From: an uncultured Bacilli bacterium
GTDB taxonomy: Bacteria; Bacillota_I; Bacilli_A; ML615J-28; CAG-313
DNA length: 64,000 nt
Direction of reading: 5' to 3'
NCBI GenBank assembly: GCA_949879765.1
Contig: CATLBQ010000001.1
Location: 95,742 to 159,741, forward strand
Part shown: positions 3,951-19,338 of the stretch, piece by piece
Layout: every line of letters begins with the position of its first letter
How positions within the stretch are numbered: position 1 is the first letter of the stretch
Position numbers and translations under genes: made by a program
The notes under the pieces: generated by a model
What the model was told of the DNA's origin: nothing
What the model saw: the letters and a program-made list of their open reading frames with translations, nothing else
Databases searched by the model: none

Positions 3951-3975
3951 ACAATTCATGATGAATAGTAGAAAA

Positions 3976-3997: not shown

Positions 3998-4041
3998 GTT
4001 CTTTTTTTTGTGCGCCTCCATATAATAGTAGTGGTGTTAGA

Positions 4042-4290
4042 ATGAATTTTGCAAAACAACTATTAGGTAATCAAAAAATATCCGTTTTTTTAGATAAAAA
4101 TGGGATTTGCCATCAAGCTAGTCTTTATAATGTAAAAGAACTGAAATTGTGTCAATCCAATCAGATTGAGATTGATCATTTTATCATTAGGGGACAAGAT
4201 TTGATGATTACTAGAATGGAGGATTATGAAATTACAATTGAAGGAAAAATTGAAAAAATGGAGTTTACCCAAGCCGAAACAAAAATCTAG
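4042..4290 (+). CDS. yqfC: Sporulation protein YqfC-like small protein
   Basis: 83-aa ORF from the internal ATG at 4042 (the longer supplied ORF would overlap the upstream terminator). It lies immediately upstream of and overlaps the YqfD-like gene, as in the Bacillus yqfC-yqfD pair. Confidence 0.4.
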   Translation: MNFAKQLLGNQKISVFLDKNGICHQASLYNVKELKLCQSNQIEIDHFIIRGQDLMITRMEDYEITIEGKIEKMEFTQAETKI

Positions 4291-5413: not shown

Positions 5414-5466
5414 ATCTTTAGCAAGTTCTTTTTTATGAAAAAAATTTGAAAATAAATTGATAAACG

Positions 5467-5495
5467 TTGACATTTTACGAAAAATCGGGTATAAT
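5467..5495 (+). promoter_or_regulatory. Sigma-A promoter of the glyQS-dnaG-rpoD operon (TTGACA, 17 nt spacer, TATAAT)
   Basis: Perfect TTGACA at 5467-5472 and TATAAT at 5490-5495. The leader to the start codon is only about 55 nt. Confidence 0.65.
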
Positions 5496-5548
5496 ATATA
5501 AGTAAAATGGGTTAAAATCGAATGAAATACGGAAGAAGGTAAAAAAGT

Positions 5549-6916
5549 ATGGAAATAACAATGGAAAAATTTGTTGCATATCTCAAACAACTCGGTTTTG
5601 TCTATCAAGGAAGTGAAATATATGGTGGACTAGCCAATACATGGGATTATGGTCCATTAGGTGTAGAATTAAAAAATAATTTGAAAAAGTTATGGTGGAA
5701 GGCATTTGTTCAAACTTCACCTACTAATGTTGGGATTGATTCTGCCATTTTAATGAATCCTCAAACTTGGGTGGCAACAGGACATGTTGGTGGATTTAGT
5801 GATCCTTTGATTGATTGTAAGCATTGTCATACAAGACATCGTGCTGATAAGTTGATTGAAGATTTCACCAAAGGAGAAATAACTGGTGATGGTTGGTCAA
5901 ACGAGCAATTGTATCAATATGTAGTGGACAATCATATTGCTTGCCCTTCATGTGGAAAAAGTGAGTTTACGGAAATTCGTCAATTCAATTTGATGTTCCA
6001 AACACACCAAGGTGTATTAGAAGATGCTAAAACGGTAGTATATTTACGGCCTGAAACTGCTCAAGGCATATTTTTGAATTTTAAAAATGTAGCAAGAACA
6101 TCGAGAAAGAAAGTGCCTTTTGGCATCGGACAAATTGGGAAGAGTTTCCGCAATGAAATTACACCAGGTAACTTCATTTTTAGAACAAGAGAATTTGAAC
6201 AAATGGAGTTGGAATTTTTCTGCAAACCAGATACGGATTTAGAGTGGTTTGATTATTGGAAACAATTTTGTCTTGACTTTTTGACAAATATTGGAATTCG
6301 TAAAGAATTGATTCGTACAAGAGATCATGCCAAAGAAGAACTAAGTTTTTATTCTAAGGCAACCACCGATATAGAATTTCAATTTTTCTTTGGTTGGGGA
6401 GAATTGTGGGGTATTGCGGATAGAACGGATTATGACTTAAGTGTTCACCAAAACCATTCAGGAGAGAACCTCATGTATTTGGATCCTGAAACGGGTGAAA
6501 AATATTTGCCATATGTAGTGGAACCAAGTTTAGGCGTAGAGCGTTTATTACTTGCTATATTGACGAGTGCATATGAAGAACAGATACTATCCGATGGCGA
6601 AACACGCGAAATTTTACATTTTGATCCTCGTGTTGCTCCAGTTAAAGTGGCAGTTTTACCTCTTGTCAATAAGTTAAGTGAACAAGCTACTGCGTTGTAT
6701 CAACAACTGAGTCAATATTTTGTGTGTGAATATGATGCAAGTGGGAAAATTGGTAAGCGATATAGACGTCAAGATGCCATTGGTACACCATATTGCATTA
6801 CCATTGACTTTGACACATTAGAAAATCAAACCGTGACTGTACGAGACCGAGATACGATGGAACAAACCCGTCTTCATATGGATGAATTATTGAATTTCTT
6901 TAGAGATAAATTTTAA
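5549..6916 (+). CDS. glyQS: Glycine--tRNA ligase (dimeric class II type)
   Basis: 455 aa with [30 protein letters not shown] near the N-terminus, then class II motifs and an anticodon-binding C-terminus. Confidence 0.9.
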
Positions 6917-6949
6917 AATAGATTTTTGAAAATCAGAAAGGGGTAGACT

Positions 6950-8761
6950 GTGATACCACAACATATCAAAAAACAGATTATCGATCAAACGAATATTGTT
7001 GAAGTTGTGGGTGAAGTCGTATCACTTGCAAAAAAGGGAAGCAGTTATTTTGGCCTATGTCCCTTTCATGATGATAAACATCCTTCAATGAGTGTAAATA
7101 ATGAAAAGAAGATGTTCAATTGCTTTAGTTGTAATACCAAAGGAAATGTTATTTTCTTCTTTTCAAAGTTTCATCATTTGACTGAGGATCAAGCGACCAT
7201 TCAACTTGCCAAACGATTGGGGATTGAAATATCGGAGCAAACAAGTAAAGAAGCCCTTCAACAAGAGCGTCTCTTTAAAACAATGAAAGAGGCAAGTAAT
7301 TTTTATCATTTTTATTTAAACAATAGTCAAGAAGGCTTGATAGCAAAACAATATTTGCGTGAACGAGGCATTGATGATCACTTGATTGAAACATTACAAA
7401 TTGGTCTTGCTAGTAGTGAAAGAGATTATTTGTATCAAGCATTAAAGGGGAAAAATTGTTCAGAATTAGATCAAGTCGAACTTGGACTGATTAAATTAGA
7501 CGATAAAAGTCAAGCATATGATGTATTTCGCCAACGGATTATGTTTCCAGTAACCAATCCAAGCGGTCAGGTTGCGGGTTTTAGTGGCCGAATCTATCAA
7601 GCATCAGATCAGGCCAAATATATTAATTCGGCTGATAATGCTATTTTTCATAAGGGACAAATTTTGTATCACTTTTATGAGGCATTATCGGAGATTCGCA
7701 AGCAAGATAAAGTCATGCTGCTGGAAGGATTTATGGATGTAATTGCTTGTATGAAAGCAGGCATAGGATATGGGGTTGCCACTATGGGTACGGCCCTAAC
7801 GAAAGAGCATATTCAATTGTTGCTTGGTGTGACGAAAAATATTGTATTATGCTTTGACGGAGATGATGCGGGCATTCATGCTATGAAACGCTCAGCTGGT
7901 TTATTAGCACGTTTTGGAATTTTACCGAAAGCTGTTGTTTTGCCCAATCATTTGGATCCAGATGAATATGCCAAAAAGCATGGTGGCGACGCTTTATGTA
8001 ATTATATTAGACAACATGAGAAAAGCGTATATGACTGGTTATATGATATAGCGATTCAGCATACTGTATTCAATGATTTAGAAAGTATGGAAAAGCTCAA
8101 GAAAAATGTATTTGAATTTTTGCGTTTTTCCAAACAAAATACAATTGTTGAACATTTTCTAAAGAAATTATCCACCGATTTAGATGTTTCAGTTGAGACA
8201 TTAAAGCAAGATTTTGGCACATTATCGACTTATGCACCTGAGATTGAGGCAGTAGAAATCCTACCTACAATAGAAAAATCGTTTTCTACCAAACCAATCG
8301 AAATTAAGAAACGGGTATTTCGGGCTTATGATGTTGTGATTCGACATATGATTGAATCTAAGAAAAAGTTTTTGGCTTTTAATGAAAAATTTGAAAATAC
8401 ATTTTATATTGATAATAGGCTTTCAATTTATTTCGATTTCATCAAAAAAATGGGCATATATTTTGCGGAAAACGATGAAATGGATGAAGAAGATTTTATG
8501 ATGCTAGCCACATCGCTAGACACGAGTAGTGAATTGAAATCTTATACAGCGTTTGCTAAACGTATTTTAACGGATACAATGGTAAATGTAAATGATAATA
8601 CTGAATTTGAACAATGTTTGCAAGCCATTGAGGATTGTGTTCATGAATTATCACAGGCGAACCTTTATAATAAAGCAATGGGGTCAAAAAACAATGAAGA
8701 TATTCAAAAGTTTGAGACGATTCGAAAAAGACAAGTAAAAATTGTGTCTGGGGAGGATTAA
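6950..8761 (+). CDS. dnaG: DNA primase
   Basis: 603 aa with a GTG start. It has a CHC2 zinc finger (CPFHDDKHPSMSV...FNCFSCNTKGN) followed by a TOPRIM region (EGFMDVIA). Confidence 0.9.
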   Translation: MIPQHIKKQIIDQTNIVEVVGEVVSLAKKGSSYFGLCPFHDDKHPSMSVNNEKKMFNCFSCNTKGNVIFFFSKFHHLTEDQATIQLAKRLGIEISEQTSKEALQQERLFKTMKEASNFYHFYLNNSQEGLIAKQYLRERGIDDHLIETLQIGLASSERDYLYQALKGKNCSELDQVELGLIKLDDKSQAYDVFRQRIMFPVTNPSGQVAGFSGRIYQASDQAKYINSADNAIFHKGQILYHFYEALSEIRKQDKVMLLEGFMDVIACMKAGIGYGVATMGTALTKEHIQLLLGVTKNIVLCFDGDDAGIHAMKRSAGLLARFGILPKAVVLPNHLDPDEYAKKHGGDALCNYIRQHEKSVYDWLYDIAIQHTVFNDLESMEKLKKNVFEFLRFSKQNTIVEHFLKKLSTDLDVSVETLKQDFGTLSTYAPEIEAVEILPTIEKSFSTKPIEIKKRVFRAYDVVIRHMIESKKKFLAFNEKFENTFYIDNRLSIYFDFIKKMGIYFAENDEMDEEDFMMLATSLDTSSELKSYTAFAKRILTDTMVNVNDNTEFEQCLQAIEDCVHELSQANLYNKAMGSKNNEDIQKFETIRKRQVKIVSGED

Positions 8762-10030
8762 ATGTTAGACGAAATTTTATATAAAGAACAAATTGATCAA
8801 ATCAAAGAGTATGTAAAGAAAAATCAATACATATCACTTATAAAAATTGGGGAAATATTTGAGAACAATCTTACAGATGAATTATTAGATGATTTGGTAG
8901 AGTATTTAGACAATGAAGGTGTAGAAATTACCAAAAATAGTGAAGAAGTCCCAAGCGAAGAGGAATTGTTGACCGAAATCATTGATGATGATTTTGAGGC
9001 TTTTGTAGAAGACCTTGAAACCGATGATGAATTGAATGATTTGGTTACAGCAGTAGATAGTGAAATTAAAGTTTCTGACTTTGAGGATATTGTGACTAGT
9101 GGCTATTCAGCCGATGATCCTGTGAAAATGTATTTACACGATATCGGGCAAATTGATTTATTGACAATCAATCAAGAATCTGAATTTGCAAGAATGTATC
9201 AAGAATCATTGATGTGTCAAGAAAAAATCAATGCTTATAAGAAACAAGGAAAGCAAATTTCAGAAGAAGAAATGGAAGAATTGAATCAAAAAATTGAGGC
9301 AGGAGAAGAAGCTAGAAAGATTCTTATTGAGTCCAATTTGAGATTGGTCGTATCAATTGCTAAAAAATATTTGGGACGTGGATTGCTTTTATTAGATCTC
9401 ATTCAAGAAGGCAATATGGGGTTGATGAAGGCGGTCAATAAATTTGATCCTACCAAGGGATTCAAATTTTCTACTTATGCTACATGGTGGATTCGTCAAG
9501 CCATTACTCGGGCAATTGCGGATAATGCAAGAACAATCCGTATTCCGGTACATATGGTGGAAACCATCAATAAATTGGTTCGTACAACTAGAAGATTGAC
9601 CCAAGAAAAGCGTCGTGAACCTACACCAGAAGAAATTGCGGCAGAAATGAAAATATCTGTTGAAAAAGTTCAAACGATTCAACGGATTGCGCAAGAGCCA
9701 ATTTCATTTGATGCTACGGTAGGTGAAGACGATGATTCTAGTCTAGGCGATTTTATTGATGACAAAGAAACCCTCAATCCACTAGAATATACGCAAAATA
9801 TGATTTATCGTGAAGAAATTGAAAAAGTATTACAGACCCTAACGCCTAGGGAAGAAAAAGTAATTCGGTTAAGATATGGATTAGATGATAATCGACCTAG
9901 AACGCTAGAAGAAGTGGGAAAAGAATTTGGGGTTACACGTGAAAGAATCAGACAAATTGAAGCCAAAGCAATTCGAAGATTACGTCATCCAAGTAGATTG
10001 AAGCGGTTAGAACAACACCGTGTCAAATAA
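8762..10030 (+). CDS. rpoD: RNA polymerase primary sigma factor (sigma-70/SigA)
   Basis: 422 aa with region 2 ([29 protein letters not shown]) and region 4 ([27 protein letters not shown]). The start codon directly follows the dnaG stop, with a GGAGG RBS. Confidence 0.95.
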
Positions 10031-10078
10031 AATGAAAAAATGTAGGGTCAACCCTATATTTGTGCTATAAGAGGATTT

Positions 10079-10759
10079 ATGTTATCAAAACGATTAATGG
10101 CCGTTTTAGATTATATCGGCCCAAATGAAAAAATTGTCGATGTAGGTTGCGATCATGGTTATTTGGCTAAGGCTGCTGTTGCAAAGGGTGTTCAGTACGT
10201 TCAATTGGTAGACAATAAAACGATGCCCCTTGCTAGAGCAAAAGCGAATCTTTCCGCTATAGAACAAGATGCAAATATCATCTATACGCTTGCAAGCGGA
10301 TTAACTTTAGTGACAGATGAAATAACGGTTGCTTGCATTTGTGGAATGGGGGGAGATTTGATTGCATCTATTTTAGAGGAATCTAAAAAACAAGCTCAAA
10401 GAATGCATTATTTGCTCCTTCAACCCAATACCAAGGTTGAGCATCTAAGAGCCTATTTATCGCAACAGGCATTTCTTATTTTAGATGAACAATGGGTAGT
10501 AGAAAAAGAAAAATATTACCCTATTTTAAAGGTACAATATGTTCCAGATACACTACCATTATCGTCGCTAGAAATTGCGTATGGTCCTTGTTTGTTACGC
10601 CATCCAAGCGATACGTTTATCGCCTATTTGAAAAGAAGAAGGACGGAACTCGATACAATTGTACAAACATTAGATGTATCTAGTCAAGATTATGCAAAGA
10701 TTGATTTGCAAATACAAGAAATTGAGGAAGTACTACATGGAATTAAAGAAAATCATTGA
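10079..10759 (+). CDS. trmK: tRNA (adenine22-N1)-methyltransferase TrmK
   Basis: 226 aa. It has the SAM-binding sequence VDVGCDHGYLAKAAV near the N-terminus and sits downstream of rpoD, as yqfN does in Bacillus. Confidence 0.8.
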   Translation: MLSKRLMAVLDYIGPNEKIVDVGCDHGYLAKAAVAKGVQYVQLVDNKTMPLARAKANLSAIEQDANIIYTLASGLTLVTDEITVACICGMGGDLIASILEESKKQAQRMHYLLLQPNTKVEHLRAYLSQQAFLILDEQWVVEKEKYYPILKVQYVPDTLPLSSLEIAYGPCLLRHPSDTFIAYLKRRRTELDTIVQTLDVSSQDYAKIDLQIQEIEEVLHGIKENH

Positions 10760-11519
10760 AACATTAGAAAAAATGTATCCAAGTTGCCTCGCAAGCCACT
10801 TTGATATAGGAAAAATTGGCTTGCAATTTGGAGACAAAAATGCGGATATTCGTAAAATAATGATCGCACTAGATGGTACAAGTGCAGTTGTGCAAGAAGC
10901 AGTTGATCGACAAGTAGATTTGTTGCTTACGCATCATCCTTTTTTATTTACACCTATGCTATCACTTGACTATCAGTCTGTTTGGGGGCAAAAACTGCAG
11001 AATGTCTTTTCCCATCAATTGAATATCTACGCTATGCATACCAATTTTGATGTAGCTATGCATGGAATGAATGATTTACTAGCCAAAATAATCGGGTTAA
11101 GCAAGATTACTCCCACAAAACCAGAAATAGATGCATCTTGTTTTATGAGAATGGGATATATTGAGCCGGTGCGTTTGGATGTATTTGCGCATCTAGTAAA
11201 AGAGCAATTAGGAGAAGAGGCTGTTCGTGTTGTTGGCTCTCCTAATAAGATGATTCGCAAAGTTGGCATTGTGGGTGGTGCAGGTTGTAGTGAGTTGCAA
11301 CAAGCCATTCAAGAAGGCTGTGACTGTTTTATTACAGGTGAAATCAAACACAATTATGCCATAGATGCGATGGAAAATGATTTTGCCTTAATTGAGGTGA
11401 GTCATAGTGTAGAAACATGGTGTAAGCACTATTTGAAGGGTGAGTTAGAACGCCTATTTGAAGGTGTCGAAATTGTGGTATCAGAGGTGGAAAAGGCCCC
11501 TTTTTGGTGGGTAAAGTGA
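10737..11519 (+). CDS. Nif3 family dinuclear metal center protein (YqfO/GTP cyclohydrolase 1 type 2 homolog)
   Basis: ORF from MELKKIIETLEKMYP, start chosen at 10737, overlapping the trmK stop by 23 nt. It has the conserved His/Glu metal ligands (THHPF, EVSHS). Confidence 0.75.
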   Translation: MELKKIIETLEKMYPSCLASHFDIGKIGLQFGDKNADIRKIMIALDGTSAVVQEAVDRQVDLLLTHHPFLFTPMLSLDYQSVWGQKLQNVFSHQLNIYAMHTNFDVAMHGMNDLLAKIIGLSKITPTKPEIDASCFMRMGYIEPVRLDVFAHLVKEQLGEEAVRVVGSPNKMIRKVGIVGGAGCSELQQAIQEGCDCFITGEIKHNYAIDAMENDFALIEVSHSVETWCKHYLKGELERLFEGVEIVVSEVEKAPFWWVK

Positions 11520-11541
11520 AAACTAAAAAATGTTTTTTTAG

Positions 11542-11576
11542 CCGTTGAGAGCGTTTTCAGCGGCTTTTTTTTCGGA
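11542..11576 (+). terminator. Rho-independent terminator ending the rpoD-trmK-nif3 transcription unit
   Basis: GCCGTTGA...TCAGCGGC stem (7 of 8 bp) followed by a T8 run. Confidence 0.55.
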
Positions 11577-11590
11577 ATATGGCTTTCATT

Positions 11591-11619
11591 TCTTGAAAAG
11601 AAAGCAGAAATTTGATACA
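11591..11619 (+). promoter_or_regulatory. Candidate promoter (TTGAAA, 17 nt spacer, TACAAT) for a small upstream ORF
   Basis: TTGAAA at 11591-11596 and TACAAT at 11614-11619, which is 54 nt upstream of a GGAGG-preceded ATG. Confidence 0.35.
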
Positions 11620-11672
11620 ATAAAAGAAAAAGTATTTGATTTAATTATTATCAAACATAACGGAGGAAAAAA

Positions 11673-11747
11673 ATGGAAAAAAATCAATCAAAAATGAATG
11701 ACAATTTTTACACTGATTGCATGATGATTCACACCAACAGCGTGTGA
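11673..11747 (+). CDS. Candidate 24-aa small ORF (MEKNQSKMNDNFYTDCMMIHTNSV) with a strong SD
   Basis: GGAGG at 11662-11666, a 6-nt spacer, then ATG. The ORF ends in TGA and is followed by the 5-bp hairpin AGACAgcggTGTCT and a T-rich stretch. I have no homology evidence. Confidence 0.25.
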   Translation: MEKNQSKMNDNFYTDCMMIHTNSV

Positions 11748-11830
11748 AAAAATGTAGGAAGACAGCGGTGTCTGTTTATTTCAAAGAAGTGCAAATTGCT
11801 GCGCTAAAGCGATTTAAATATGCAAATTAT

Positions 11831-11859
11831 ATTTAATTTTTCGACAATTATGGTATAAT
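11831..11859 (+). promoter_or_regulatory. Promoter of the giant surface-protein/Opp locus (extended -10 TGgTATAAT) overlapped by a CodY-like box
   Basis: TGGTATAAT at 11851-11859. AATTTTTCGACAATT at 11835-11849 matches about 10 of 15 positions of the CodY consensus AATTTTCWGAAAATT. Confidence 0.45.
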
Positions 11860-11898
11860 TAACAAGATTACAAAAAAATCATGAGAGGAGATGCAAAA

Positions 11899-14800
11899 AT
11901 GAAAATTTTTAGAAAGACGTTAATCATATGCGGATTGTTTTGTGCACTATTTATTATAGGGTGTGCAAAACCTGCAGATTCTTTAGAAAATTCTAAAAAT
12001 CCAAATCATAATGGTACATCTGATTCATTCAAATTAGATGTTAGTCAAGTTACTGCTGACTTAAAAGCAGATTTTATTGATTCGCTCAATAAAGATTTGG
12101 TAAAGGAAATCGCAGACTTAAAAAAAGATGAAGAAGTAGGGGTGATCATTACATTATCAGATCAATCACTTGTTTCAGATTATCTTTTATCAAGTGCTGA
12201 AAATTTTGAAGCATATTCAAAAACAAAAGCATATAAAGTATTGCAAAGAACTTTATTCAGTAAACAAAAACAATTGATTGAATTACTAGAACAAAAACGA
12301 CTAGTTAAAGAAGTAAAATATCAATACGAAACAATATTAGATGGTATCTATGTTCGAACAAAGGCAAGTAATGTTCAAGCCATTACCCAATTGCCTGGGG
12401 TAGAAAGAGTGATGGTGTCTAATACGTATGATAAACCTGATGCGGTAACCAATCCAGTTCAAGTTTATGATACGGGTATTTTTGATAGTAGCGATGTAAA
12501 ATATACTGGAAAAGGTACAATTGTTGCGGTTTTAGATACAGGATGTGACTATACACATACGGCTTTTACAACACATGAAGTTATCGATCCATTGTATTCA
12601 AGAGATGACATTGAAGGGATGCTAGATGGGCTTTTTGCTAATCGCTATACCGCAGATTTAGAAACTCGTGATGTATATTATTCTAGCAAGATTCCTTATG
12701 GATACGATTATGCCGATAAGGATCCAGATATTATGCCATACGAAAGTGAACATGGTACACACGTTGCTGGTATTATTGGTGGATATGATGATACCATTTG
12801 TGGTGTTGCAATTGATACTCAATTGGCAATCATGAAAGTATTCTCAGACTACAAGCAAGGTGCTGAAGATGGAGATATCTTAGCGGCTTTAGAGGACTCT
12901 GTAAAATTAGGTGTAGATGCTATCAACATGAGTTTAGGTACTTCTTGTGGATTTACACGTGAAGAAGATGAGGCATATAAGAGTGAGATTTATGACAATA
13001 TTGAAAAAGCTGGAATTAGTTTAGTTGTTGCTGCATCAAATGACCATAGCAGTGCGTATGGTTCTGAGCAAGGAAATACCAATAAGGCTTCTAATCCAGA
13101 CTCTGCTACAGTAGGTTCACCATCTACTTATCATGCGGCATTATCTGTTGCTTCTATTAACGGAAATATGGATAAGTATATGCTTGCTAATGGTAATCAA
13201 ACTGTCTTTTTCTTAGAATCATTTAATCAATCTGCTAAAGAATATAATTTTTATGAAATGTTAGGTATTCCAAACAATCAATCTGTTGTTTATGATTACG
13301 TAACTGTTCCTGGATTTGGACTTAGTGCAAATTATACAGGTTTAGATATTCAGGGAAAAATTGCCCTTGTAAAGCGTGGAGATATTTCTTTTGAAGAAAA
13401 AGTTCAATATGCGTATGAAGCAGGTGCGATTGCATGTATCGTATATAACAATGTATTTGGTGATATTGTTATGACAGTAGGTAATAACTTACAAATCCCA
13501 ACTGTATCAATTTCTAAAGATGATGGAGTAAAATTGGCTTCAGTACCAAGCGGAAAAATTGAATTCAATATGAATAATATTGCTGGACCATTTATGTCTG
13601 ACTTCTCTAGTTGGGGACCTACACCAAATCTTGAATTAAAACCTGAAATCACGGCGCATGGTGGAAATATTTTATCGGCGATTCCTGGTGGAGGATATGA
13701 TAAATTAAGTGGAACCTCTATGGCTTGTCCAAATATGTGTGGTGTTGCGGTATTGGTTCGTCAATATGTAAAAGAAAAATTCCCTGGCCTTTCGACTACA
13801 GAGATTAGAGATATGGTTAACCAATTGGTGACTTCAACGGCAACAATTGCGTTAGACCGCTTAGGCAATCCATATTCACCTAGAAAACAAGGAGCTGGAC
13901 TTGCTAGTTTGTTCAATGCCGTAAATACCAAAGCATATTTGACGGTTGATGGCAAAAATGTGGCGAAAGCAGAACTTGGTGATGATCCAAAACGTACTGG
14001 TGTATATGAGTTTGAATTCAATTTAATCAATATGTCCGATCAAGCATTACGCTATGACTTATCTTCTGTTGTAATGACCGAAACCCTTTCATCTTCTGAC
14101 GAAGAATATGTAGCAGAACTAGGTTATATTTTAGATGGAAAGACAAGTTATGCTGTAAGCAATGGGACTTTAAATGGAACTGTTTGCGAAGTGGCTGCTG
14201 GTGCGACTTCTGTTGTAAAAGTAAAAATTACCCTCTCTGATGCTGATAAAAATTATTTGAACCGTTATTTCAAAAACGGTATGTATGTAGAAGGATTTAT
14301 AAAATTAAAATCATTATCAAATGATGTTGATTTAAATATTCCTTATCTTGCTTTTTATGGAGACTGGTCTGAAGCACCAATATTCGATTTAGACTATTAT
14401 ACTGTTGAAACAGAGTCTCATAATAATGCAATTGATGATGAAGATAAAATTAAAGCTGACTATTATGCAACTAAGCCACTTGGTAAATATTATTATGACT
14501 ATATTATCCCTCTAGGTAGTTATGTATACACGATGGATGAATCCTTATATAATCCAATTCCTGCAACGATGGAACATGCAGCAGTATCCTATTTTACAGA
14601 CTGCATTAGTGGAATATATGGTGTATTTACGGGTCTTTTAAGAGGTGCAAAAGAATTAAGTATTGAAATTAAAAATGAACTAACAGGAGAAGTAATTTGG
14701 GAAAATACCGAATACAATTGTTATAAATCGCACTACAGTGGTGCACCTAGACCATATTATTGCGATATTGATCTTGAAGCAGGAGATCTTGCGCTAGACA

Positions 14801-17800
14801 ATAATGCGAAATATGTGGTAACGATGAAAGCTAAACTCGACTGGAATAGTACAGAAAACAATCTAAATGATAGTTATAGTTTTTCTTTCTACGTTGATTA
14901 TGAAACACCTCGTGTGTTAGGTGCCAATTACCGAAAGGTATATGATAAGTCTGAAGAACGGTATCATTATTTTGTTGATTTAGAAGTTTATGATAACCAC
15001 TATGTCCAATCTATTCGCCCTGTTGTACTATATACCAATGAGGCGACTGGCAAATTGACGTATACGTCTTTAACTGATAATCCAATTCCGGTATATCAAA
15101 AGAATCGTGGTGAAAAAACCATTGTTGAAGTTGAAATTACAGATTACATGGATATCATCAAAGAAACCAATTTATCGGAAGGTCTTGCTTTCCATATCGA
15201 TGACTATGCGATGAATTCGAATATCTACTATATTTCTTTACCAGAATTAGATAGCAAAAATTTGGCTTTTACTGAAGATACATTAGAAGTGAGTGTAAAT
15301 GATACATTTGATTTAAGACAATTGATGAAGGTAAATGGTCAAGAAGGCATCAATACAGATTACTTAGGTAACTTAAGTTGGACTTCTACAAATCCTTCAG
15401 TAGTAAAAGTGTCTGGTGGTCAAATTGAGGCGCTTCAAGAAGGAAAAGCAACCATTCTTTGTGAAAGTTTAGTCACACATAAACGAATTTCAATTGTAAT
15501 CAATGTTGCAGCGAAGAATGACAATGATAATCCGTTATCTGGAGCCAATGTAGGTCTAGAAGATTTAAAATTTGTTTCTTACAATACATTATTTGCTTTT
15601 GAAAGTGATAACGACCACAGTGAGATTGGTTTAACTGGGTCTATTAATTTCTTTGATACGAAACCAAGCATTTCTTGCTATCCTAGTGAGAGTGTGAAAT
15701 TAAATTATGTGTTAAAACCATGGAATTTAAATGAAGATCGTTATACATTATCTTATAGTTCATCCAATGAAAAAGTAGTTCAAGTCGATAAAAACGGTGT
15801 GGTGACTGCTGTAGGTGAAGGTAAAGCTAGAATTAGCCTTCGTATCACCATTGATGGAAAAACCTCTACATTAGTAGCTCGTTGTGAAGTTACGGTAAAG
15901 AGTCCATTCATTGTAGAAAATCGTACACTTACAGAATATAAAGGTCTTGGTGGGGATGTTGTCATTCCTGATGACCTTGGAATTATGTATATTGGTTCTT
16001 TTGCATTCTGTCATTATAAGGTAGACAATAAAATAGAACCAGAAGATCCAGATGATTTTGATTCAAAAAAGATTCCTTTTGGAAATGATACGATTACATC
16101 AGTTGTCATTCCTGAAGGTGTTGAAGAAATTCAAAAATATGCATTCTATCAATGTACAGCATTAAGAAGAGTGAATCTTCCTACAAGTTGTACCAAAATA
16201 TATGAATATGCATTTTATAATGATACAGCATTACAACAAATCAATCTTGAAAATGTAGTTGTTATTGCAGCAAGAACATTTTATAATTGTGAAAGTTTAT
16301 TAGAAACAGATACAGCAAAAGCCAATACAATTGGTGAAGAAGCTTTTGCAAAATGTAAAAATATTCGTTCTGCTGATTTAAGAGAACTAAAAAGAAGTGG
16401 TAAAAATGCCTTTTTAGATTGTATCCGTTTATCTACAGTATTACTTGGAAAATGGACAAAATTGAGTGAAGGTATCTTTACGAATACAAGATTAACTGAG
16501 GTTACTGTATATAGCACATATGTACCTGATCAAGCATTTAAAGGCTGTGAAAGATTAACCAAAATTTCTTTTGAAAACGAATTGACTTATTTAGGAGATG
16601 CTGTTTTTGAAGGATGTCTTCGTCTTGAAAATATTGAATTCAAAAAAGGCGTTGAATATATGGGAACCGATTTGGTTAATGGTTGTAATGCGTTAAAGAC
16701 ATTAACTCTTCCATCATCAGAAGTAGAAATTGCTGATTATGCCTTCCAAAATAGTGGTATCGAAACGGTTGTTTTTGCTAAAGATACTTACATTGTATCT
16801 GCTGGTGGTAGTTTATTCAAATCTTGTGATCGTTTACAACAAATTGATGCTAGTGCATCTCAATATTATGCATATAAAGATGGCGCATTATATACTCAAG
16901 ATTTAAAGACCTTGATGTTGATTCATCCAAATACATTACTTTCTATTTACAATGTACCTGATTCTGTTGAATATATTGCACCATCTGCAGTATCTTGTAA
17001 TGAAAGTTTAACTGCTATTTATTTTAGTAACTCTTCTCAAATAAAAGAAATCGGAGCCAATGCTTTTGCGGAATGTCCAAATTTACAAATGGTAACTTTA
17101 CCAAACCATGATGTAACGATTGGGAATCACGCATTCTTCTATTGTCCAAAATTAGAAACTGTTAATGTCAATTTTGTAACTGCTATAGGAGATTATGCAT
17201 TCTCTTATACCAATGTAAGAAATATTACGATTGCTGAGGGAGCAACGCTTGGTGAAGGTGCCTTCTATCAAACAAGCAATTTATATGAACTTGTTCTTGG
17301 GGCTAATGTTCAAATTGGATTTGGTTCTTTCTCAAAGAGTGGGATTGTGAACGTTCAAATGCCAGAAGCTGGTGGTGTAGTCATTGGCGATCAAGCATTT
17401 GCTCTAAACCAATCATTGATGAGCATTGATTTAACCAAAGCTACTGGTAAAATTGGTGATGCTGCATTCTATAATTGTTCTAAATTAACTAGTATTGCTT
17501 TTGATCAAATTGAAGAAATTGGGGATCGAGCATTTGCAGATTGTACACGCCTTGAATCAGTAGAACTAGGTACAACATTGACAAAAATTGGTGAAAGTGC
17601 CTTTGCGCAATATGCAACAGGTTCAACATCTGGGGCTGCGTTTACATCGTTAGTCCTTCCAGATAGTTTAGTATACATTGGAGCAGATGCGTTCCATGGC
17701 TGTCGTTTGTTAGAAAGTATTGATTTAAATCAAGTTACAACAATTGGTGAACAAGCTTTTGCACATTGTGTGCAATTGGCTAGTGTTACACTAGGCGAGG

Positions 17801-19338
17801 GACTAAAGCATTTATCTGATAGTATTTTCTATGGTTGTAGTCAACTTGTAAGTATTAATTTAGAAAATGTAGAGACCATTGCTCGTGCGGTTTTCTATTC
17901 CACAAGCCTTGAACAAATCAATTTGGCTAAGGTTACACGCGTCGATGATTCTGCTTTCCTAAATTGTGGAAACTTAATGGAAGTTTATGCCCCATGTCTT
18001 CAATATATTGGTCAAATGGCCTTCCAATCCACAGGTCTTACGCAAATTGATTTACCAGCATTAGAAGAAGTCAAAGCACAAGCCTTTTACCAAACAAAAA
18101 TTGCAGAGTTTGGTATATCTGAAAATTTAACTTCTGTTGAGTATACTGCCTTTATGGGTATGGATGATTTAACTCATTTTTATGCATATGGTGATCCATA
18201 TAAACAAGATACGATTGCATTTAGTAATGTGATTTTAGATCAAGGGGTATTGTATACAATTTTACCTGATGGTAGTTATCAACTTGTTCAATATCCAGTT
18301 GCTAAAACTGATGAAACATACACGGTGTTAGATGGTACTACTCGATTAGATTATTTCAGCGCTGCTTATAATGAATATATTCAAAGGGTTGTATTCCCAA
18401 CTAGTTTAAAAGCAATTGCCAATGGGGCGTTCTATGGTTGTAGTCAACTTAACGAAGTAGAATTCAATTCTTATTATGCACCACAATTAGAAGGAACAAT
18501 GACTTTGGCATCTCAAGTCAAACCTACTCCAGAAACATATGAAGCATTTGATATTTTATATGGTCATGATTATTATTATTTTGCGGGAGCAGGATTGCAA
18601 TACTACTATGCTATGGTTTATCAAAACTTCATTGATACTGTTGGTAAAAAGTATCAGCCAATGACATACATTTATCCTGAAAATAGTAGTGGATATGATT
18701 CCATTTTGTACACAGTTTATTTTAAAGATAAAGTAGATGAAGAAGGAAATCGTATTACAACTGGCTTCACAATGGATAATTTTGCTATCAATTTTAATGA
18801 AGCGATAAAATTGTTACCAGACACTGTTACTTTTAAAGATGAGACGGTGATTCGAAATGCTAGAACAGCATATAATGCTTTATTGATGCACGAAGAACAA
18901 CTTTCCTTTATTTCACAAGAAGATGTAGCAAAATTAATTGAAAAAGAAACAGCTCTAAATGTTTTATTGATGAACCGTACACTTGAACGAATTTATGTTG
19001 TAGAAAACTCAAAATATTCATACGACCAAATCAAAGCAGCGTATCTTCAATTCTCTAAATTAACAAAAGAAGAAGTTGATTTACTAGAAAATGCTTCTCA
19101 ATTAGATGAAGCTATTGCTAAACTTGAAGCTGCGATGAAGCAAAAAGTTGACTTTAACAAAGAATACAACGAGTATGAACCAGTAAAAGAACTACCAGAA
19201 CCTACCCCAACTCCTGAACCTGAGCCTAAAAATAATACCGCAATTATAGTGGTATCCATTCTTGGTGGTATTTTAGTGATTGCAGGTGGCGTGGTTTTAG
19301 TACTGTATTTGCTCAAAAAGAAAGGAAATAAGAAATGA
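11899..19338 (+). CDS. Giant cell-surface subtilisin-like serine protease (S8) with PA domain insert, Big_2 Ig-like domains, long BspA-type leucine-rich repeat array, Pro/Thr/Glu linker and C-terminal TM anchor; N-terminal lipoprotein signal
   Basis: Start at the ATG at 11899 with an AGAGGAG RBS. The lipobox is FIIGC. The catalytic triad motifs are VLDTGCDYTHTAF (Asp), HGTHVAGIIGG (His) and GTSMACPNM (Ser). The PA-like insert reads GKIALVKRGDISFEEKVQYAYEAGAIACIVYN. A Big_2 domain is seen at NPSVVKVSGGQIEALQEGKATI. Dozens of LRR_5-like repeats have the pattern IGxxAFxxCxxLxxI. The C-terminus reads EPTPTPEPEP, then a TM helix (IIVVSILGGILVIAGGVVLVLYLL), then KKKGNKK. Confidence 0.85.
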   Translation: MKIFRKTLIICGLFCALFIIGCAKPADSLENSKNPNHNGTSDSFKLDVSQVTADLKADFIDSLNKDLVKEIADLKKDEEVGVIITLSDQSLVSDYLLSSAENFEAYSKTKAYKVLQRTLFSKQKQLIELLEQKRLVKEVKYQYETILDGIYVRTKASNVQAITQLPGVERVMVSNTYDKPDAVTNPVQVYDTGIFDSSDVKYTGKGTIVAVLDTGCDYTHTAFTTHEVIDPLYSRDDIEGMLDGLFANRYTADLETRDVYYSSKIPYGYDYADKDPDIMPYESEHGTHVAGIIGGYDDTICGVAIDTQLAIMKVFSDYKQGAEDGDILAALEDSVKLGVDAINMSLGTSCGFTREEDEAYKSEIYDNIEKAGISLVVAASNDHSSAYGSEQGNTNKASNPDSATVGSPSTYHAALSVASINGNMDKYMLANGNQTVFFLESFNQSAKEYNFYEMLGIPNNQSVVYDYVTVPGFGLSANYTGLDIQGKIALVKRGDISFEEKVQYAYEAGAIACIVYNNVFGDIVMTVGNNLQIPTVSISKDDGVKLASVPSGKIEFNMNNIAGPFMSDFSSWGPTPNLELKPEITAHGGNILSAIPGGGYDKLSGTSMACPNMCGVAVLVRQYVKEKFPGLSTTEIRDMVNQLVTSTATIALDRLGNPYSPRKQGAGLASLFNAVNTKAYLTVDGKNVAKAELGDDPKRTGVYEFEFNLINMSDQALRYDLSSVVMTETLSSSDEEYVAELGYILDGKTSYAVSNGTLNGTVCEVAAGATSVVKVKITLSDADKNYLNRYFKNGMYVEGFIKLKSLSNDVDLNIPYLAFYGDWSEAPIFDLDYYTVETESHNNAIDDEDKIKADYYATKPLGKYYYDYIIPLGSYVYTMDESLYNPIPATMEHAAVSYFTDCISGIYGVFTGLLRGAKELSIEIKNELTGEVIWENTEYNCYKSHYSGAPRPYYCDIDLEAGDLALDNNAKYVVTMKAKLDWNSTENNLNDSYSFSFYVDYETPRVLGANYRKVYDKSEERYHYFVDLEVYDNHYVQSIRPVVLYTNEATGKLTYTSLTDNPIPVYQKNRGEKTIVEVEITDYMDIIKETNLSEGLAFHIDDYAMNSNIYYISLPELDSKNLAFTEDTLEVSVNDTFDLRQLMKVNGQEGINTDYLGNLSWTSTNPSVVKVSGGQIEALQEGKATILCESLVTHKRISIVINVAAKNDNDNPLSGANVGLEDLKFVSYNTLFAFESDNDHSEIGLTGSINFFDTKPSISCYPSESVKLNYVLKPWNLNEDRYTLSYSSSNEKVVQVDKNGVVTAVGEGKARISLRITIDGKTSTLVARCEVTVKSPFIVENRTLTEYKGLGGDVVIPDDLGIMYIGSFAFCHYKVDNKIEPEDPDDFDSKKIPFGNDTITSVVIPEGVEEIQKYAFYQCTALRRVNLPTSCTKIYEYAFYNDTALQQINLENVVVIAARTFYNCESLLETDTAKANTIGEEAFAKCKNIRSADLRELKRSGKNAFLDCIRLSTVLLGKWTKLSEGIFTNTRLTEVTVYSTYVPDQAFKGCERLTKISFENELTYLGDAVFEGCLRLENIEFKKGVEYMGTDLVNGCNALKTLTLPSSEVEIADYAFQNSGIETVVFAKDTYIVSAGGSLFKSCDRLQQIDASASQYYAYKDGALYTQDLKTLMLIHPNTLLSIYNVPDSVEYIAPSAVSCNESLTAIYFSNSSQIKEIGANAFAECPNLQMVTLPNHDVTIGNHAFFYCPKLETVNVNFVTAIGDYAFSYTNVRNITIAEGATLGEGAFYQTSNLYELVLGANVQIGFGSFSKSGIVNVQMPEAGGVVIGDQAFALNQSLMSIDLTKATGKIGDAAFYNCSKLTSIAFDQIEEIGDRAFADCTRLESVELGTTLTKIGESAFAQYATGSTSGAAFTSLVLPDSLVYIGADAFHGCRLLESIDLNQVTTIGEQAFAHCVQLASVTLGEGLKHLSDSIFYGCSQLVSINLENVETIARAVFYSTSLEQINLAKVTRVDDSAFLNCGNLMEVYAPCLQYIGQMAFQSTGLTQIDLPALEEVKAQAFYQTKIAEFGISENLTSVEYTAFMGMDDLTHFYAYGDPYKQDTIAFSNVILDQGVLYTILPDGSYQLVQYPVAKTDETYTVLDGTTRLDYFSAAYNEYIQRVVFPTSLKAIANGAFYGCSQLNEVEFNSYYAPQLEGTMTLASQVKPTPETYEAFDILYGHDYYYFAGAGLQYYYAMVYQNFIDTVGKKYQPMTYIYPENSSGYDSILYTVYFKDKVDEEGNRITTGFTMDNFAINFNEAIKLLPDTVTFKDETVIRNARTAYNALLMHEEQLSFISQEDVAKLIEKETALNVLLMNRTLERIYVVENSKYSYDQIKAAYLQFSKLTKEEVDLLENASQLDEAIAKLEAAMKQKVDFNKEYNEYEPVKELPEPTPTPEPEPKNNTAIIVVSILGGILVIAGGVVLVLYLLKKKGNKK

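What the first reader, a model, noticed from the sequence alone, without database searches (positions are those of the whole stretch)
11899..19338. 2,485-aa chimeric surface protein anchored at both termini: lipobox, S8 protease with PA insert, Big_2, long BspA-type LRR array, PT-rich linker, C-terminal TM
The sequence shows an N-terminal lipoprotein signal (FIIGC) and subtilase catalytic motifs (DTG, HGTHVAG, GTSMA) with a PA-like insert. Two bacterial Ig-like regions follow. A leucine-rich repeat region of about 800 aa has the BspA/LRR_5 pattern (IGxxAFxxCxxLxxI...). Then come a coiled segment, EPTPTPEPEP, a hydrophobic helix and a KKKGNKK stop-transfer tail. There is no LPXTG. A proteinase fused to a large protein-binding LRR array and predicted to be held by both a lipid anchor and a C-terminal helix is not a described architecture for lactocepin/C5a-peptidase-like enzymes. 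The LRR array could bind host or dietary proteins to target proteolysis.
Basis: partly seen in the sequence, partly recalled or inferred. Interest (0 to 1): 0.65.

Follow-up and report, generated by a model that had tools for sequence, protein, structure and literature searches.

The report
Giant surface protease heading a peptide-uptake operon
This is a real 2,479-residue membrane-tethered subtilisin-type protease with a built-in leucine-rich-repeat stalk. It is the first gene of a widely conserved operon that also encodes an oligopeptide importer, so it most likely digests outside proteins into peptides for uptake. That makes it an uncharacterised variant of the known cell-envelope proteinase system, not a new kind of machine.

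Summary
One uninterrupted ORF (11899..19338, 2,479 aa) carries a lipobox signal peptide, an S8 catalytic domain with a PA insert, Fn3/Ig-type beta-sandwich domains, about 860 aa of BspA-type LRR_5 repeats, a helical segment, a PT-rich linker and a C-terminal TM helix with a KKKGNKK tail. There is no LPXTG.

It is not an assembly chimera. More than 120 full-length colinear homologues exist at 47-64% identity, and deeper ones at about 32%, in uncultured gut Firmicutes with GC of 31-58%. D213, H285, N381 and S607 are invariant.

The N-terminal 1,140 aa is a complete C5a-peptidase/CEP-like module. An I9-type propeptide sits between the lipobox and the catalytic domain. The lipobox is confined to the closest clade, whereas the C-terminal helix is family-wide. 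'Anchored at both ends' therefore probably applies only to the zymogen.

The gene is always followed by a Flg_new lipoprotein, an enlarged OppA, OppBCDF and a small TM protein.

Best reading: a membrane-anchored cell-envelope proteinase feeding a dedicated Opp importer. This is a new variant of a known kind. Public annotation calls it only 'leucine-rich repeat protein'. Interest is moderate.

The parts
11540..11565 (+). Intrinsic-terminator-like hairpin plus T-run ending the upstream dnaG-rpoD-trmK-NIF3 unit. Marks the 5' boundary of the cassette.
   Evidence: 11 pairs, 5 GC, T8 tail; upstream genes
11593..11621 (+). Promoter-like site (TTGAAA-17-TACAAT with TG). A second TGnTATAAT (TGGTATAAT) lies at about 11851-11859.
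   Evidence: sequence read. Consensus match only, not shown to function.
11886..11890 (+). Ribosome-binding site AGGAG, 8 nt before ATG 11899
11899..19338 (+). CDS of the 2,479-aa S8-LRR cell-envelope proteinase (mature protein about 272 kDa, pI about 4.6)
11899..11964 (+). Signal peptide with lipobox (K2, R5, K6; hydrophobic core; I-I-G-C22)
   Evidence: Pattern only; no SignalP available. A lipobox-like motif (loose pattern) is found in 39 of 120 homologues.
12133..12429 (+). I9-type propeptide (aa ~79-177)
   Evidence: Pfam Inhibitor_I9 E 0.0035, 18.4 bits, below the 21.2-bit cut-off, covering profile positions 3-79 of 82. Same-position hits in L004, L007, L011 and L014; L014 scores 21.5 bits, above the cut-off. 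AF2 pLDDT 81-90 with a beta-alpha-beta-beta-alpha-beta order.
12490..13938 (+). Subtilase S8 catalytic domain (aa ~198-680). D213 is at nt 12535-12537, H285 at 12751-12753, oxyanion N381 at 13039-13041, S607 at 13717-13719.
   Evidence: (all four residues invariant in 63 sequences)
13279..13563 (+). PA (protease-associated) domain inserted in the catalytic domain (aa ~461-555)
   Evidence: E 4.6e-17
14005..14349 (+). fn3_5 domain (aa 703-817), equivalent to Fn1 of C5a peptidase / start of the CEP A domain
14362..15318 (+). Family-specific conserved segment plus two beta-sandwich domains (aa 822-1140). No Pfam match.
   Evidence: Found only in this giant-protein family: 238 hits among 1.84 billion representatives.
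15319..15903 (+). Two Big_2-like Ig domains (aa ~1141-1335)
   Evidence: Big_2 E 1.1e-10, 2 stretches
15916..18498 (+). BspA-type LRR_5 array, about 30-37 repeats of 21-25 aa in three modules (caps at aa 1344, 1659, 2113)
   Evidence: No DNA-level tandem repeats. Almost no indels across the family.
18499..19173 (+). Post-LRR region (aa 2201-2290) followed by a helical-looking segment (aa ~2291-2425). No family match.
   Evidence: Least conserved part, about 0.33 identity. Not modelled.
19189..19227 (+). Pro/Thr/Glu-rich linker ELPEPTPTPEPEP
19240..19335 (+). C-terminal TM helix (aa 2448-2472) plus KKKGNKK tail. No LPXTG.
   Evidence: 117 of 120 homologues have the helix, 0 of 120 an LPXTG-like motif; 0 of 105 distant representatives have LPXTG
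19335..20453 (+). 372-aa lipoprotein with a Flg_new (Listeria-Bacteroides) repeat. Its start overlaps the protease stop. Conserved accessory gene.
20457..22982 (+). Enlarged OppA-type lipoprotein (841 aa, SBP_bac_5)
22994..25089 (+). OppB (22994..24001) and OppC (24010..25089) permeases
25093..27511 (+). OppD (25093..26268) and OppF (26222..27511) ATPases with oligo_HPY C-terminal domains
27492..27737 (+). 81-aa single-TM protein overlapping the oppF stop. An 85-87-aa gene sits at the same position in L007, L008 and L015.
   Evidence: No family hit.
28097..28127 (.). A-run/hairpin/T-run, terminator-like on both strands. Probable 3' end of the cassette.
   Evidence: reported on the - strand; symmetric sequence

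Best explanation
The gene encodes an active, membrane-tethered cell-envelope proteinase (CEP). It is a subtilase of the lactocepin / C5a-peptidase type and the first gene of an eight-gene protein-to-peptide foraging operon.

Proposed mechanism:
1. The preprotein is exported by Sec. In this clade it is lipidated at Cys22.
2. An I9-type propeptide (aa ~79-177) folds and inhibits the catalytic domain, and is then probably cleaved off.
3. The mature enzyme is then held only by its C-terminal TM helix.
4. From the membrane outward lie the PT-rich linker, the helical segment, the ~860-aa LRR solenoids, the Ig/Fn domains, and finally the S8-PA catalytic head at the tip.
5. The head cuts extracellular (dietary, host or microbial) proteins into oligopeptides.
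6. The co-encoded enlarged OppA lipoprotein captures these peptides and OppBCDF imports them.
7. The LRR array takes the place of the B-domain 'shaft' of lactocepin. It most likely serves as a rigid spacer and as a protein-binding surface, for substrates or for the co-encoded lipoproteins.

Shown: the domain content, the intact and invariant catalytic residues, the C5a-peptidase-like fold, the family-wide C-terminal helix without LPXTG, and the conserved gene order with Opp.

Inferred: proteolytic activity, propeptide removal, co-transcription, the nutritional role and the role of the LRR array.
For: - Domains and motifs.
- Catalytic residues: D213, H285, N381 and S607 are invariant in 63 homologues at 47-64% identity.
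- Closest solved relatives by sequence: C5a peptidase, SpyCEP and CEP, E 2e-66 to 2e-86 over aa ~198-870.
- By fold: the AF2 model of aa 30-1140 best matches ScpB/ScpA (E 1e-43, about 1,040 aligned columns) and SpyCEP.
- Propeptide.
- Gene order: S8-LRR, Flg_new-type accessory, enlarged OppA, OppBCDF is kept in every related locus long enough to show it. These are L001-L005 (93-49% identity), L007, L008, L010, L012/L013 and L015 (about 32-34% identity). Host GC ranges from 31% to 58% and the upstream flanks differ. The two short loci, L011 and L014, still show the accessory homologue.
- Operon signals: stop/start overlaps (19335; 27492), a terminator only upstream at 11540-11565, and no convincing + strand terminator before about 28097.
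- Parallel with lactocepin: its module order is prepro, catalytic domain with insert, A, B, H (helical), W (spacer), anchor, and it works with OppA/Opp (PMC7783315).
- Stable array: the LRR region shows almost no indels across the family and no DNA tandem repeats. This suggests a fixed structural part, not a phase-variable adhesin.
- Host taxonomy: labels of related MAGs and an 87%-identical ParC point to Acholeplasmatales/Anaeroplasmataceae-like Bacilli. Sortases are inferred to have been lost in that lineage (PMC10868615). This fits anchoring without LPXTG.
Against: - No activity, expression or localisation data exist; everything is inferred from sequence.
- The AF2 model is only moderate (mean pLDDT 66, with a poorly scored catalytic core), so docking of the propeptide in the active site was not examined.
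- The I9 match in this protein is below Pfam's cut-off.
- No PrtM/PrsA-type maturation lipoprotein is in the window.
- No CodY-box enrichment was found that would tie the gene to nitrogen regulation.
- Streptococcal relatives of the catalytic module are specific virulence proteases, not nutritional ones.
- Opp systems also import signalling peptides.
- The role of the LRR array is unsupported by any direct test.
Confidence: 0.68

Rival explanations
1. Host-directed colonisation or immune-evasion factor. The LRR array acts as an internalin/BspA-like adhesin for host cells or matrix, and the S8 head cleaves specific host proteins such as chemokines, complement or mucus proteins, as ScpA/ScpB and SpyCEP do.
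For: The closest solved structures are streptococcal virulence proteases. LRR_5 proteins such as BspA, TpLRR and PcpA are adhesins (their roles from general knowledge). The organisms are gut-associated.
Against: The linkage to a dedicated Opp importer is universal and ancient, and holds across hosts with GC of 31-58%. This is hard to explain by a host-specific target. The LRR region has a fixed length with almost no indels. The NCBIfam HupY/LrrG adhesin and SGO_0316 models score far below their cut-offs.
Confidence: 0.12
2. Bacteriolytic or predatory feeding tool. The LRR array binds surfaces of other microbes, the protease degrades their envelope proteins, and Opp imports the released peptides. 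Cultured Anaeroplasma bactoclasticum is described as bacteriolytic and proteolytic; this is recalled from memory and was not verified here.
For: Related MAGs are labelled Anaeroplasma / Anaeroplasmataceae / Acholeplasmatales. GC of 34% matches that genus (the genus GC value is from memory). The Opp linkage fits any protein source.
Against: The MAG labels are inconsistent; the same cluster is also labelled Prevotella, Staphylococcus and Roseburia. No lytic (peptidoglycan-cleaving) domain is present in the protein. The family is equally present in high-GC 'Clostridia' MAGs. No literature support was found in the library.
Confidence: 0.07
3. Maturation protease for secreted signalling peptides, which are then re-imported by the adjacent Opp system as in quorum-sensing circuits of Firmicutes.
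For: Opp transporters import pheromone peptides in many Firmicutes (general knowledge). The protease and Opp genes are adjacent.
Against: No RNPP-type regulator or small pro-peptide gene is conserved in the cassette. A 272-kDa enzyme with PA, Fn3 and LRR modules and an enlarged OppA is typical of bulk protein degradation, not of pheromone processing.
Confidence: 0.04
4. Artefact: a mis-assembly or frameshift-fused set of separate protease and LRR genes, or an inactive pseudo-protease used only as an adhesin.
For: None beyond the unusual size.
Against: The exact protein occurs on at least 5 independent contigs. More than 120 colinear full-length homologues exist, with deeper ones at about 32% identity aligning over about 2,400-2,600 residues. 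The catalytic residues are invariant.
Confidence: 0.01

Closest known systems
Lactocepin (PrtP) and other cell-envelope proteinases of lactic acid bacteria, working with the Opp oligopeptide transporter (MEROPS family S8; domain scheme of Siezen 1999 as summarised in PMC7783315)
   Same: - Pre-pro region and an S8 catalytic domain with an inserted PA-type domain.
- Fn3-type A domain, a long extended middle region, a helical segment, a Pro/Thr-rich spacer and a C-terminal hydrophobic anchor with a basic tail.
- Functional partnership with OppA/OppBCDF to feed on extracellular protein.
   Different: - The middle 'shaft' is two Big_2 domains plus about 860 aa of LRR_5 solenoid instead of the B domain.
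- The anchor is a plain TM helix with no LPXTG, so there is no covalent wall linkage.
- This clade has an N-terminal lipobox.
- No PrtM gene lies nearby.
- The protease and opp genes are in one conserved operon; in Lactococcus, prtP/prtM and opp are separate loci (from general knowledge).
- Sequence similarity is limited to the N-terminal ~870 aa.
Streptococcal C5a peptidases ScpA/ScpB and SpyCEP/ScpC (PDB 3eif, 1xf1, 8bty, 7edd, 5xya, 6vjb)
   Same: Best sequence and fold matches for aa ~198-1140: S8 with PA insert followed by three Fn3-type domains.
   Different: - Only about 21-23% identity.
- The streptococcal enzymes are about 1,100-1,650 aa, LPXTG-anchored, lack LRRs, are not encoded with Opp, and are narrow-specificity virulence factors.
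- The NCBIfam SGO_0316/0317 LPXTG peptidase model scores 274 bits against a cut-off of 1,400.
BspA-type LRR_5 surface proteins (Tannerella BspA, Treponema TpLRR/LrrA, pneumococcal PcpA, and gut-bacterial LRR_5 proteins of unknown function 4fs7, 4gt6, 4h09)
   Same: The repeat type and the cap motifs of aa ~1340-2200.
   Different: Those are stand-alone adhesins or unknowns of 200-1,100 aa without a protease. Here the array is an internal part of an enzyme, and its repeat number is fixed across the family.
Dentilisin (PrtP) of Treponema denticola, a lipidated surface S8 protease complex (recalled from general knowledge, not tested here)
   Same: A subtilase held at the cell surface by a lipid anchor, in an organism that also uses LRR surface proteins.
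   Different: Dentilisin is a small S8 lipoprotein in a multi-protein complex in an outer membrane. It has no fused LRR array, no C-terminal TM helix and no Opp operon.

Membership tests
Subtilases (MEROPS/Pfam S8, PF00082) | Pfam Peptidase_S8 match above the gathering score | tested here: met
   148.1 bits against a 21.8-bit cut-off, E 4.5e-43
Subtilases (MEROPS/Pfam S8, PF00082) | Catalytic Asp-His-Ser in that order, plus the oxyanion Asn | tested here: met
   D213, H285, N381 and S607 sit in canonical motifs and are invariant in 63 homologues
Subtilases (MEROPS/Pfam S8, PF00082) | Proteolytic activity | not testable with these tools
   Needs an enzyme assay
Cell-envelope proteinase / C5a-peptidase group of S8 | PA domain inserted in the catalytic domain, followed by Fn3-type domains | tested here: met
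   PA E 4.6e-17 and fn3_5 E 3.3e-11. The fold match to ScpA/ScpB covers about 1,040 columns.
Cell-envelope proteinase / C5a-peptidase group of S8 | N-terminal signal peptide plus a removable propeptide | tested here: inconclusive
   The signal peptide is present by pattern. The I9 match is sub-threshold here (18.4 against 21.2 bits), above threshold in one relative, and recurs at the same position in 5 of 10 members. The AF2 fold is consistent. Cleavage itself is not testable here.
Cell-envelope proteinase / C5a-peptidase group of S8 | LPXTG sortase signal for covalent wall anchoring (typical, though not universal, in the group) | tested here: not met
   No LPXTG in this protein. None in 120 close homologues or in 105 distant representatives. 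No sortase domain in any ORF of at least 150 aa in the window.
NCBIfam NF040553 SGO_0316/SGO_0317 LPXTG-anchored serine peptidase family | Score at or above the curated cut-off (1,400 bits) | tested here: not met
   274.1 bits, covering only aa 62-827
Lactocepin system | Adjacent PrtM/PrsA-type PPIase maturation lipoprotein | tested here: not met
   No rotamase/PpiC domain in any annotated ORF of the window. It could lie elsewhere in the genome.
BspA-type LRR proteins (Pfam LRR_5, PF13306) | LRR_5 match above the gathering score, in multiple copies | tested here: met
   429 bits against a 27.7-bit cut-off, 7 stretches. PDB relatives 4fs7, 4gt6, 4h09, TpLRR and PcpA.
NCBIfam NF047961 adhesin HupY/LrrG | Score at or above the curated cut-off (1,250 bits) | tested here: not met
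   120.7 bits
Bacterial lipoproteins | Basic n-region, hydrophobic core, and lipobox [LVI][ASTVI][GAS]C | tested here: met
   MKIFRKTLIICGLFCALFIIG-C22. Pattern only. Lgt/Lsp processing is not testable. A lipobox-like motif (loose pattern) is found in only 39 of 120 homologues.
Opp-type oligopeptide ABC importer (operon partner) | SBP_bac_5 binding protein, two BPD_transp_1 permeases (one with OppC_N) and two ABC ATPases with oligo_HPY | tested here: met
   The NCBIfam Opp4A equivalog scores below its cut-off (92.8 against 650 bits), so the OppA is divergent and enlarged.
Exosortase/rhombosortase-type C-terminal sorting signals (PEP-CTERM, GlyGly-CTERM) | Conserved short motif directly before the TM helix, and an NCBIfam CTERM model hit | tested here: not met
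   No such NCBIfam hit. The residues before the helix vary freely among homologues.

The most novel reading that the evidence does not exclude
The cassette could be a Gram-positive (Firmicute/mollicute-type) counterpart of a nutrient-utilisation locus, but for protein. It is an ancient, vertically kept eight-gene unit. In this reading the protease's fixed ~35-repeat LRR platform physically docks the co-encoded Flg_new lipoprotein and the enlarged OppA, forming a surface 'proteolysome'. That assembly would capture protein, cut it and hand the peptides directly to the importer. The LRR array would then be an assembly scaffold rather than an adhesin or a passive stalk.
Probability: 0.15. Interest if true: 0.65.

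Novelty: new variant of a known kind. Interest (0 to 1): 0.4.

Why it matters
- Protein breakdown by gut anaerobes is poorly assigned to genes. It drives ammonia, branched-chain fatty acid and amine production in rumen and colon.
- This family is large, deeply conserved and present across many uncultured gut Firmicutes. In every locus examined that extends far enough downstream it is wired to a peptide importer.
- Public annotation hides it under the name 'leucine-rich repeat protein'.
- Recognising it as a cell-envelope proteinase plus Opp operon gives a concrete, testable marker for proteolytic potential in MAGs. It also gives a natural example of a CEP anchored by a TM helix instead of sortase.
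- It does not overturn any current concept.

Tried and rejected
- **Wall-less host as a full explanation of the missing LPXTG.** Only partly tenable.
  - ParC and the MAG labels point to Acholeplasmatales/Anaeroplasmataceae-like Bacilli.
  - PMC10868615 infers sortase loss in that lineage.
  - However, the window carries Pfam-level YqfD, SpoIIM, Germane and PgdA/PdaB-like genes.
  - The same paper reports mur and sporulation genes in many Anaeroplasmataceae.
  - High-GC 'Clostridia' relatives use the same TM anchor.
- **CodY box in the leader.** There is one 3-mismatch site at 11835-11849. The window as a whole has fewer such sites than chance (9 against 18 expected), so this is no evidence.
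- **Rfam and tRNA scans of the window.** Nothing found.
- **Isolated AF2 model of aa 822-1140.** pLDDT 61; Foldseek gave only generic Ig/Fab/PapD-type hits. The first ~90 residues of the segment (aa 822-910) scored poorly in both models even though they are highly conserved.
- **Pfam on the C-terminal aa 2291-2439.** No significant family.
- **PDB and NCBIfam on the 372-aa accessory lipoprotein.** Only the Flg_new repeat was recognised.
- **PEP-CTERM or GlyGly-CTERM-like reading of 'PEPEP...TM...KKK'.** Rejected: no model hit and no conservation.
- **Literature searches for an S8+LRR_5 fusion, a protease-Opp operon in gut bacteria, mollicute subtilisin lipoproteins, and Anaeroplasma proteolysis.** Nothing relevant was found.
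- **DNA tandem repeats in the LRR region.** None.
Full report
**Observation**

The window holds one uninterrupted ORF on the + strand, 11881..19338.

The likely start is ATG 11899, as in the finding's coordinates. AGGAG lies 8 nt upstream. The closest homologues begin MK(I/L)IKK, and some gene callers give 2,479 aa. The protein is therefore 2,479 aa; 2,485 aa counts from the upstream ATG.

- Pfam finds Peptidase_S8 (E 4.5e-43, aa 204-667), PA (4.6e-17, aa 468-546), fn3_5 (3.3e-11), Big_2 and LRR_5 (1.9e-130, seven stretches).
- The motif positions were located exactly: lipobox FIIGC ending at C22, D213, H285, N381, S607, the linker ELPEPTPTPEPEP at 2431-2443, a 25-residue hydrophobic helix at 2448-2472, and KKKGNKK at the end.
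- There is no LPXTG.
- The LRR region runs from about aa 1340 to 2200. Its repeats are 21-25 residues long, in three modules that each open with the usual LRR_5 cap motif.

**Not an artefact, and not rare**

- The exact protein is on at least five independent contigs, the longest about 280 kb, from a JGI metagenome.
- A search of 5.8 billion clustered proteins returned 120 or more full-length (2,460-2,640 aa) homologues at 47-64% identity with the same Pfam set.
- In a 63-sequence alignment the four catalytic residues are invariant. The proteins are colinear with almost no gaps over all 2,479 positions, including the LRR array.
- Conservation is highest in the catalytic domain (about 0.73 identity to the query) and in aa 826-950. 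It is lower in the LRR region (0.42) and lowest in the C-terminal helical and linker parts (about 0.3).
- A profile-free phmmer search with aa 822-1140, which has no Pfam match, was run against 1.84 billion representatives. It found only 238 proteins. Almost all complete ones are 2,200-2,900 aa and carry the match at the same relative position. This segment is therefore private to a deep family of giant proteins.
- Crude motif checks were run on the 105 representatives of at least 2,000 aa. They show S8 motifs in 83, eight or more LRR motifs in 88, a strong C-terminal hydrophobic helix in 84, and LPXTG in none. Most of the failures look like strict-pattern misses, borderline hydrophobicity scores or truncated gene calls.
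- tblastn against fetched loci shows colinear alignment over about 2,400-2,600 residues at 32-34% identity in most of these distant loci (about 1,140 residues in L014), with GC of 40-58%.
- NCBI names these proteins only 'leucine-rich repeat protein'.

**What the parts are**

- *Catalytic module.* By sequence, the best solved relatives of aa ~198-870 are streptococcal C5a peptidases, SpyCEP and a 'cell envelope proteinase' (E 2e-66 for the single sequence, 2e-86 for the family profile).
- *Fold.* An AF2 model of aa 30-1140 built on 63 sequences is only moderate (mean pLDDT 66). Even so, its best Foldseek matches are ScpB/ScpA (E 1e-43, about 1,040 aligned columns) and SpyCEP. The N-terminal 1,140 residues are thus a complete C5a-peptidase/CEP-type module: S8 with a PA insert followed by three Fn3-type sandwiches.
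- *Propeptide.* The model's most confident N-terminal part is aa ~79-174 (pLDDT 81-90), with the order beta-alpha-beta-beta-alpha-beta.
  - Pfam Inhibitor_I9 matches aa 83-177 over nearly its whole length. The match is sub-threshold (E 0.0035, 18.4 bits against a 21.2-bit cut-off).
  - The same weak hit recurs at the same position in 5 of 10 family members tested. One of them is above the cut-off.
- *Middle region.* After the protease module come two Big_2-like domains and then the LRR_5 modules. The closest solved relatives of the LRR modules are gut-bacterial LRR_5 proteins of unknown function (4fs7, 4gt6, 4h09), TpLRR and PcpA.
- *C-terminal region.* The last ~180 residues before the linker look helical by sequence and match no family.
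- *Repeat age.* There are no DNA-level tandem repeats, so the array is old and diverged.

**Anchoring**

- Across 120 homologues, the C-terminal helix with a basic tail is present in 117, and an LPXTG-like motif in none.
- A lipobox-like motif, scored with a loose pattern, occurs in 39. A clear lipobox is seen mainly in the clade closest to this window. Most relatives at about 50% identity have ordinary signal peptides.
- No conserved motif precedes the helix, and no NCBIfam CTERM sorting model matches.
- The conserved anchor is therefore the C-terminal TM helix.
- The lipobox lies upstream of a probable propeptide. CEP and C5a-peptidase enzymes remove this propeptide autocatalytically (established knowledge; PrtP autoprocessing is noted in PMC7783315).
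This step is inferred, not shown.

**Context: the main new finding**

- *Upstream.* dnaG, rpoD, trmK and a NIF3 gene lie upstream, followed by a good terminator at 11540-11565.
- *Downstream.* With overlapping or near-abutting ends come:
  - a 372-aa lipoprotein with a Flg_new repeat (19335..20453);
  - an 841-aa OppA-type lipoprotein;
  - OppB, OppC, OppD and OppF (20457..27511);
  - an 81-aa single-TM protein that overlaps the oppF stop.
- *Conservation.* The order protease, Flg_new-type accessory, enlarged OppA, OppBCDF, often followed by the small protein, is kept in every related locus long enough to show it.
  - Close to mid-range relatives: L001-L005 (93% to 49% identity), and L007 and L008 (about 50%).
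  - Distant relatives: L010, L012/L013 and L015 (32-34% identity).
  - The upstream neighbours differ between these loci.
  - The two short loci, L011 and L014, still show the accessory homologue.
- *Meaning.* A cell-envelope proteinase working with OppA/Opp is the classical proteolytic system of lactic acid bacteria.
  - The module order of lactocepin is prepro, catalytic domain with insert, A, B, H (helical), W (spacer), anchor (Siezen's scheme, as summarised in PMC7783315).
  - This protein parallels that order almost module for module. The Big_2 and LRR_5 region stands in for the B domain, and a plain TM helix stands in for the LPXTG anchor.

**Host**

- The window has 34% GC.
- Related MAGs carry inconsistent labels: Anaeroplasma bactoclasticum, Anaeroplasmataceae bacterium, uncultured Bacilli bacterium, and also Prevotella, Staphylococcus and Roseburia for the same cluster.
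- The window's ParC is 87% identical to that of an 'Acholeplasmatales bacterium' MAG.
- The window also has Pfam-level YqfD, SpoIIM and Germane domains and a PgdA/PdaB-like deacetylase. These are below NCBIfam equivalog cut-offs.
- This mix fits PMC10868615. That paper reports sporulation and mur genes in many Anaeroplasmataceae genomes and infers loss of sortases at the node ancestral to Acholeplasmatales, Izemoplasmatales and ML615J-28.
- Sortase loss would explain the lack of LPXTG and the many lipoproteins here. All five predicted surface proteins read in the window have lipoboxes.
- It cannot be the whole story, because high-GC 'Clostridia' relatives use the same TM anchor.

**Mechanism proposed**

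The preprotein is exported and, in this clade, lipidated. The I9 propeptide assists folding and is then removed. The mature ~250-kDa enzyme stays tethered by its C-terminal helix. The linker, the helical segment and the LRR solenoids hold the catalytic head away from the membrane. At about 5 Å rise per repeat, the LRR solenoids would span on the order of 15-18 nm; this is an estimate from general LRR geometry. Extracellular proteins are cut into oligopeptides, which the enlarged OppA lipoprotein captures and OppBCDF imports.

The LRR array is most simply a rigid shaft that also offers a protein-binding face. Its fixed repeat number across the family argues against a rapidly varying adhesin. 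Whether it binds substrates, the co-encoded lipoproteins, host surfaces or other microbes is open.

**Rivals**

- *Host-directed protease-adhesin.* The streptococcal relatives and the adhesin roles of LRR_5 proteins suggest this. The universal Opp linkage across very different hosts speaks against it.
- *Bacteriolytic feeding.* This fits the Anaeroplasma labels and my unverified recollection of that organism's phenotype. It has no direct support, and no lytic domain is present.
- *Pheromone processing.* No conserved precursor or regulator gene is in the cassette.
- *Artefact or dead enzyme.* Refuted.

**Comparison and novelty**

- It works like a CEP-plus-Opp system.
- It is a member of the S8 subtilases and of the PA/Fn3-bearing CEP/C5a-peptidase structural group.
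- It fails the LPXTG criterion and the curated NCBIfam SGO_0316 model (274 against 1,400 bits).
- Its LRR part is LRR_5 but not the HupY/LrrG equivalog.
- I found no paper describing an S8+LRR_5 fusion or this operon. The searchable library is limited to open-access papers.
- I rate it a new variant of a known kind. It is worth characterising as a marker of proteolytic capacity in uncultured gut Firmicutes, but it is not conceptually surprising. Interest 0.4.

Noticed in passing
window 27492..27737 (+): An 81-aa single-TM ORF overlaps the oppF stop. A gene of 85-87 aa sits at the same position after oppF in L007, L008 and L015. It seems to be a conserved eighth gene of the cassette and matches no family.
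   Followed up: partly
window ~11674..11748 (+), inside the 380-nt leader 11566..11898: A 24-codon ORF (MEKNQSKMNDNFYTDCMMIHTNSV) with an AGGAGG-like ribosome-binding site lies between the upstream terminator and the protease start. It could be a leader peptide or could arise by chance. No Rfam element is present there.
   Followed up: no
window 39978..42137 and 42311..46405 (+): Two adjacent paralogous lipoproteins (719 and 1,364 aa) carry Flg_new repeats and share long, nearly colinear N-terminal and central blocks. They are further large surface proteins of unknown function, anchored by lipoboxes only.
   Followed up: no
window 4226..5413, 1676..2524, 61112..61672, 38688..39842: Pfam-level YqfD, Germane, SpoIIM and PdaB/PgdA-like genes sit in a genome whose ParC is 87% identical to an 'Acholeplasmatales bacterium' MAG. 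All score below NCBIfam equivalog cut-offs. This fits the report (PMC10868615) that many Anaeroplasmataceae genomes keep sporulation and mur genes.
   Followed up: partly
window 34084..36150 (+): A single 688-aa ORF fuses cytidylate kinase (Cmk) with S1 RNA-binding repeats of ribosomal protein S1 type.
   Followed up: no
window 28776..29414 (-), 52157..52801 (+), 52805..53929 (+): Two PlsY (glycerol-3-phosphate acyltransferase) paralogues are present. An MGDG-synthase-type glycosyltransferase lies next to the second one, behind a MarR-type regulator. This looks like a membrane glycolipid module.
   Followed up: no
window, whole (1..64000): 35 of 39 ORFs of at least 150 aa are on the + strand. 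GC skew is positive up to about 60 kb and then drops to about zero. A XerC/D-type recombinase gene lies at 61665..62567.
   Followed up: no
L012 12622..18960 and L013 7810..14148; L007 26379 onward: In some distant relatives, a 2,112-aa Flg_new/Glug protein lies between the protease gene and the small Flg_new-type accessory gene. In another locus, a 2,832-aa Flg_new+LRR_5 protein follows the Opp genes. The cassette seems to attract further giant surface proteins.
   Followed up: no
NCBI records MCM1259442.1 / MCM1349698.1 / MCM1514231.1 / MCM1130257.1: Near-identical proteins are assigned by submitters to Prevotella sp., Staphylococcus sp., Roseburia sp. and Anaeroplasma bactoclasticum. The taxonomic labels of these MAGs are unreliable. 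The product name 'leucine-rich repeat protein' hides the protease.
   Followed up: partly
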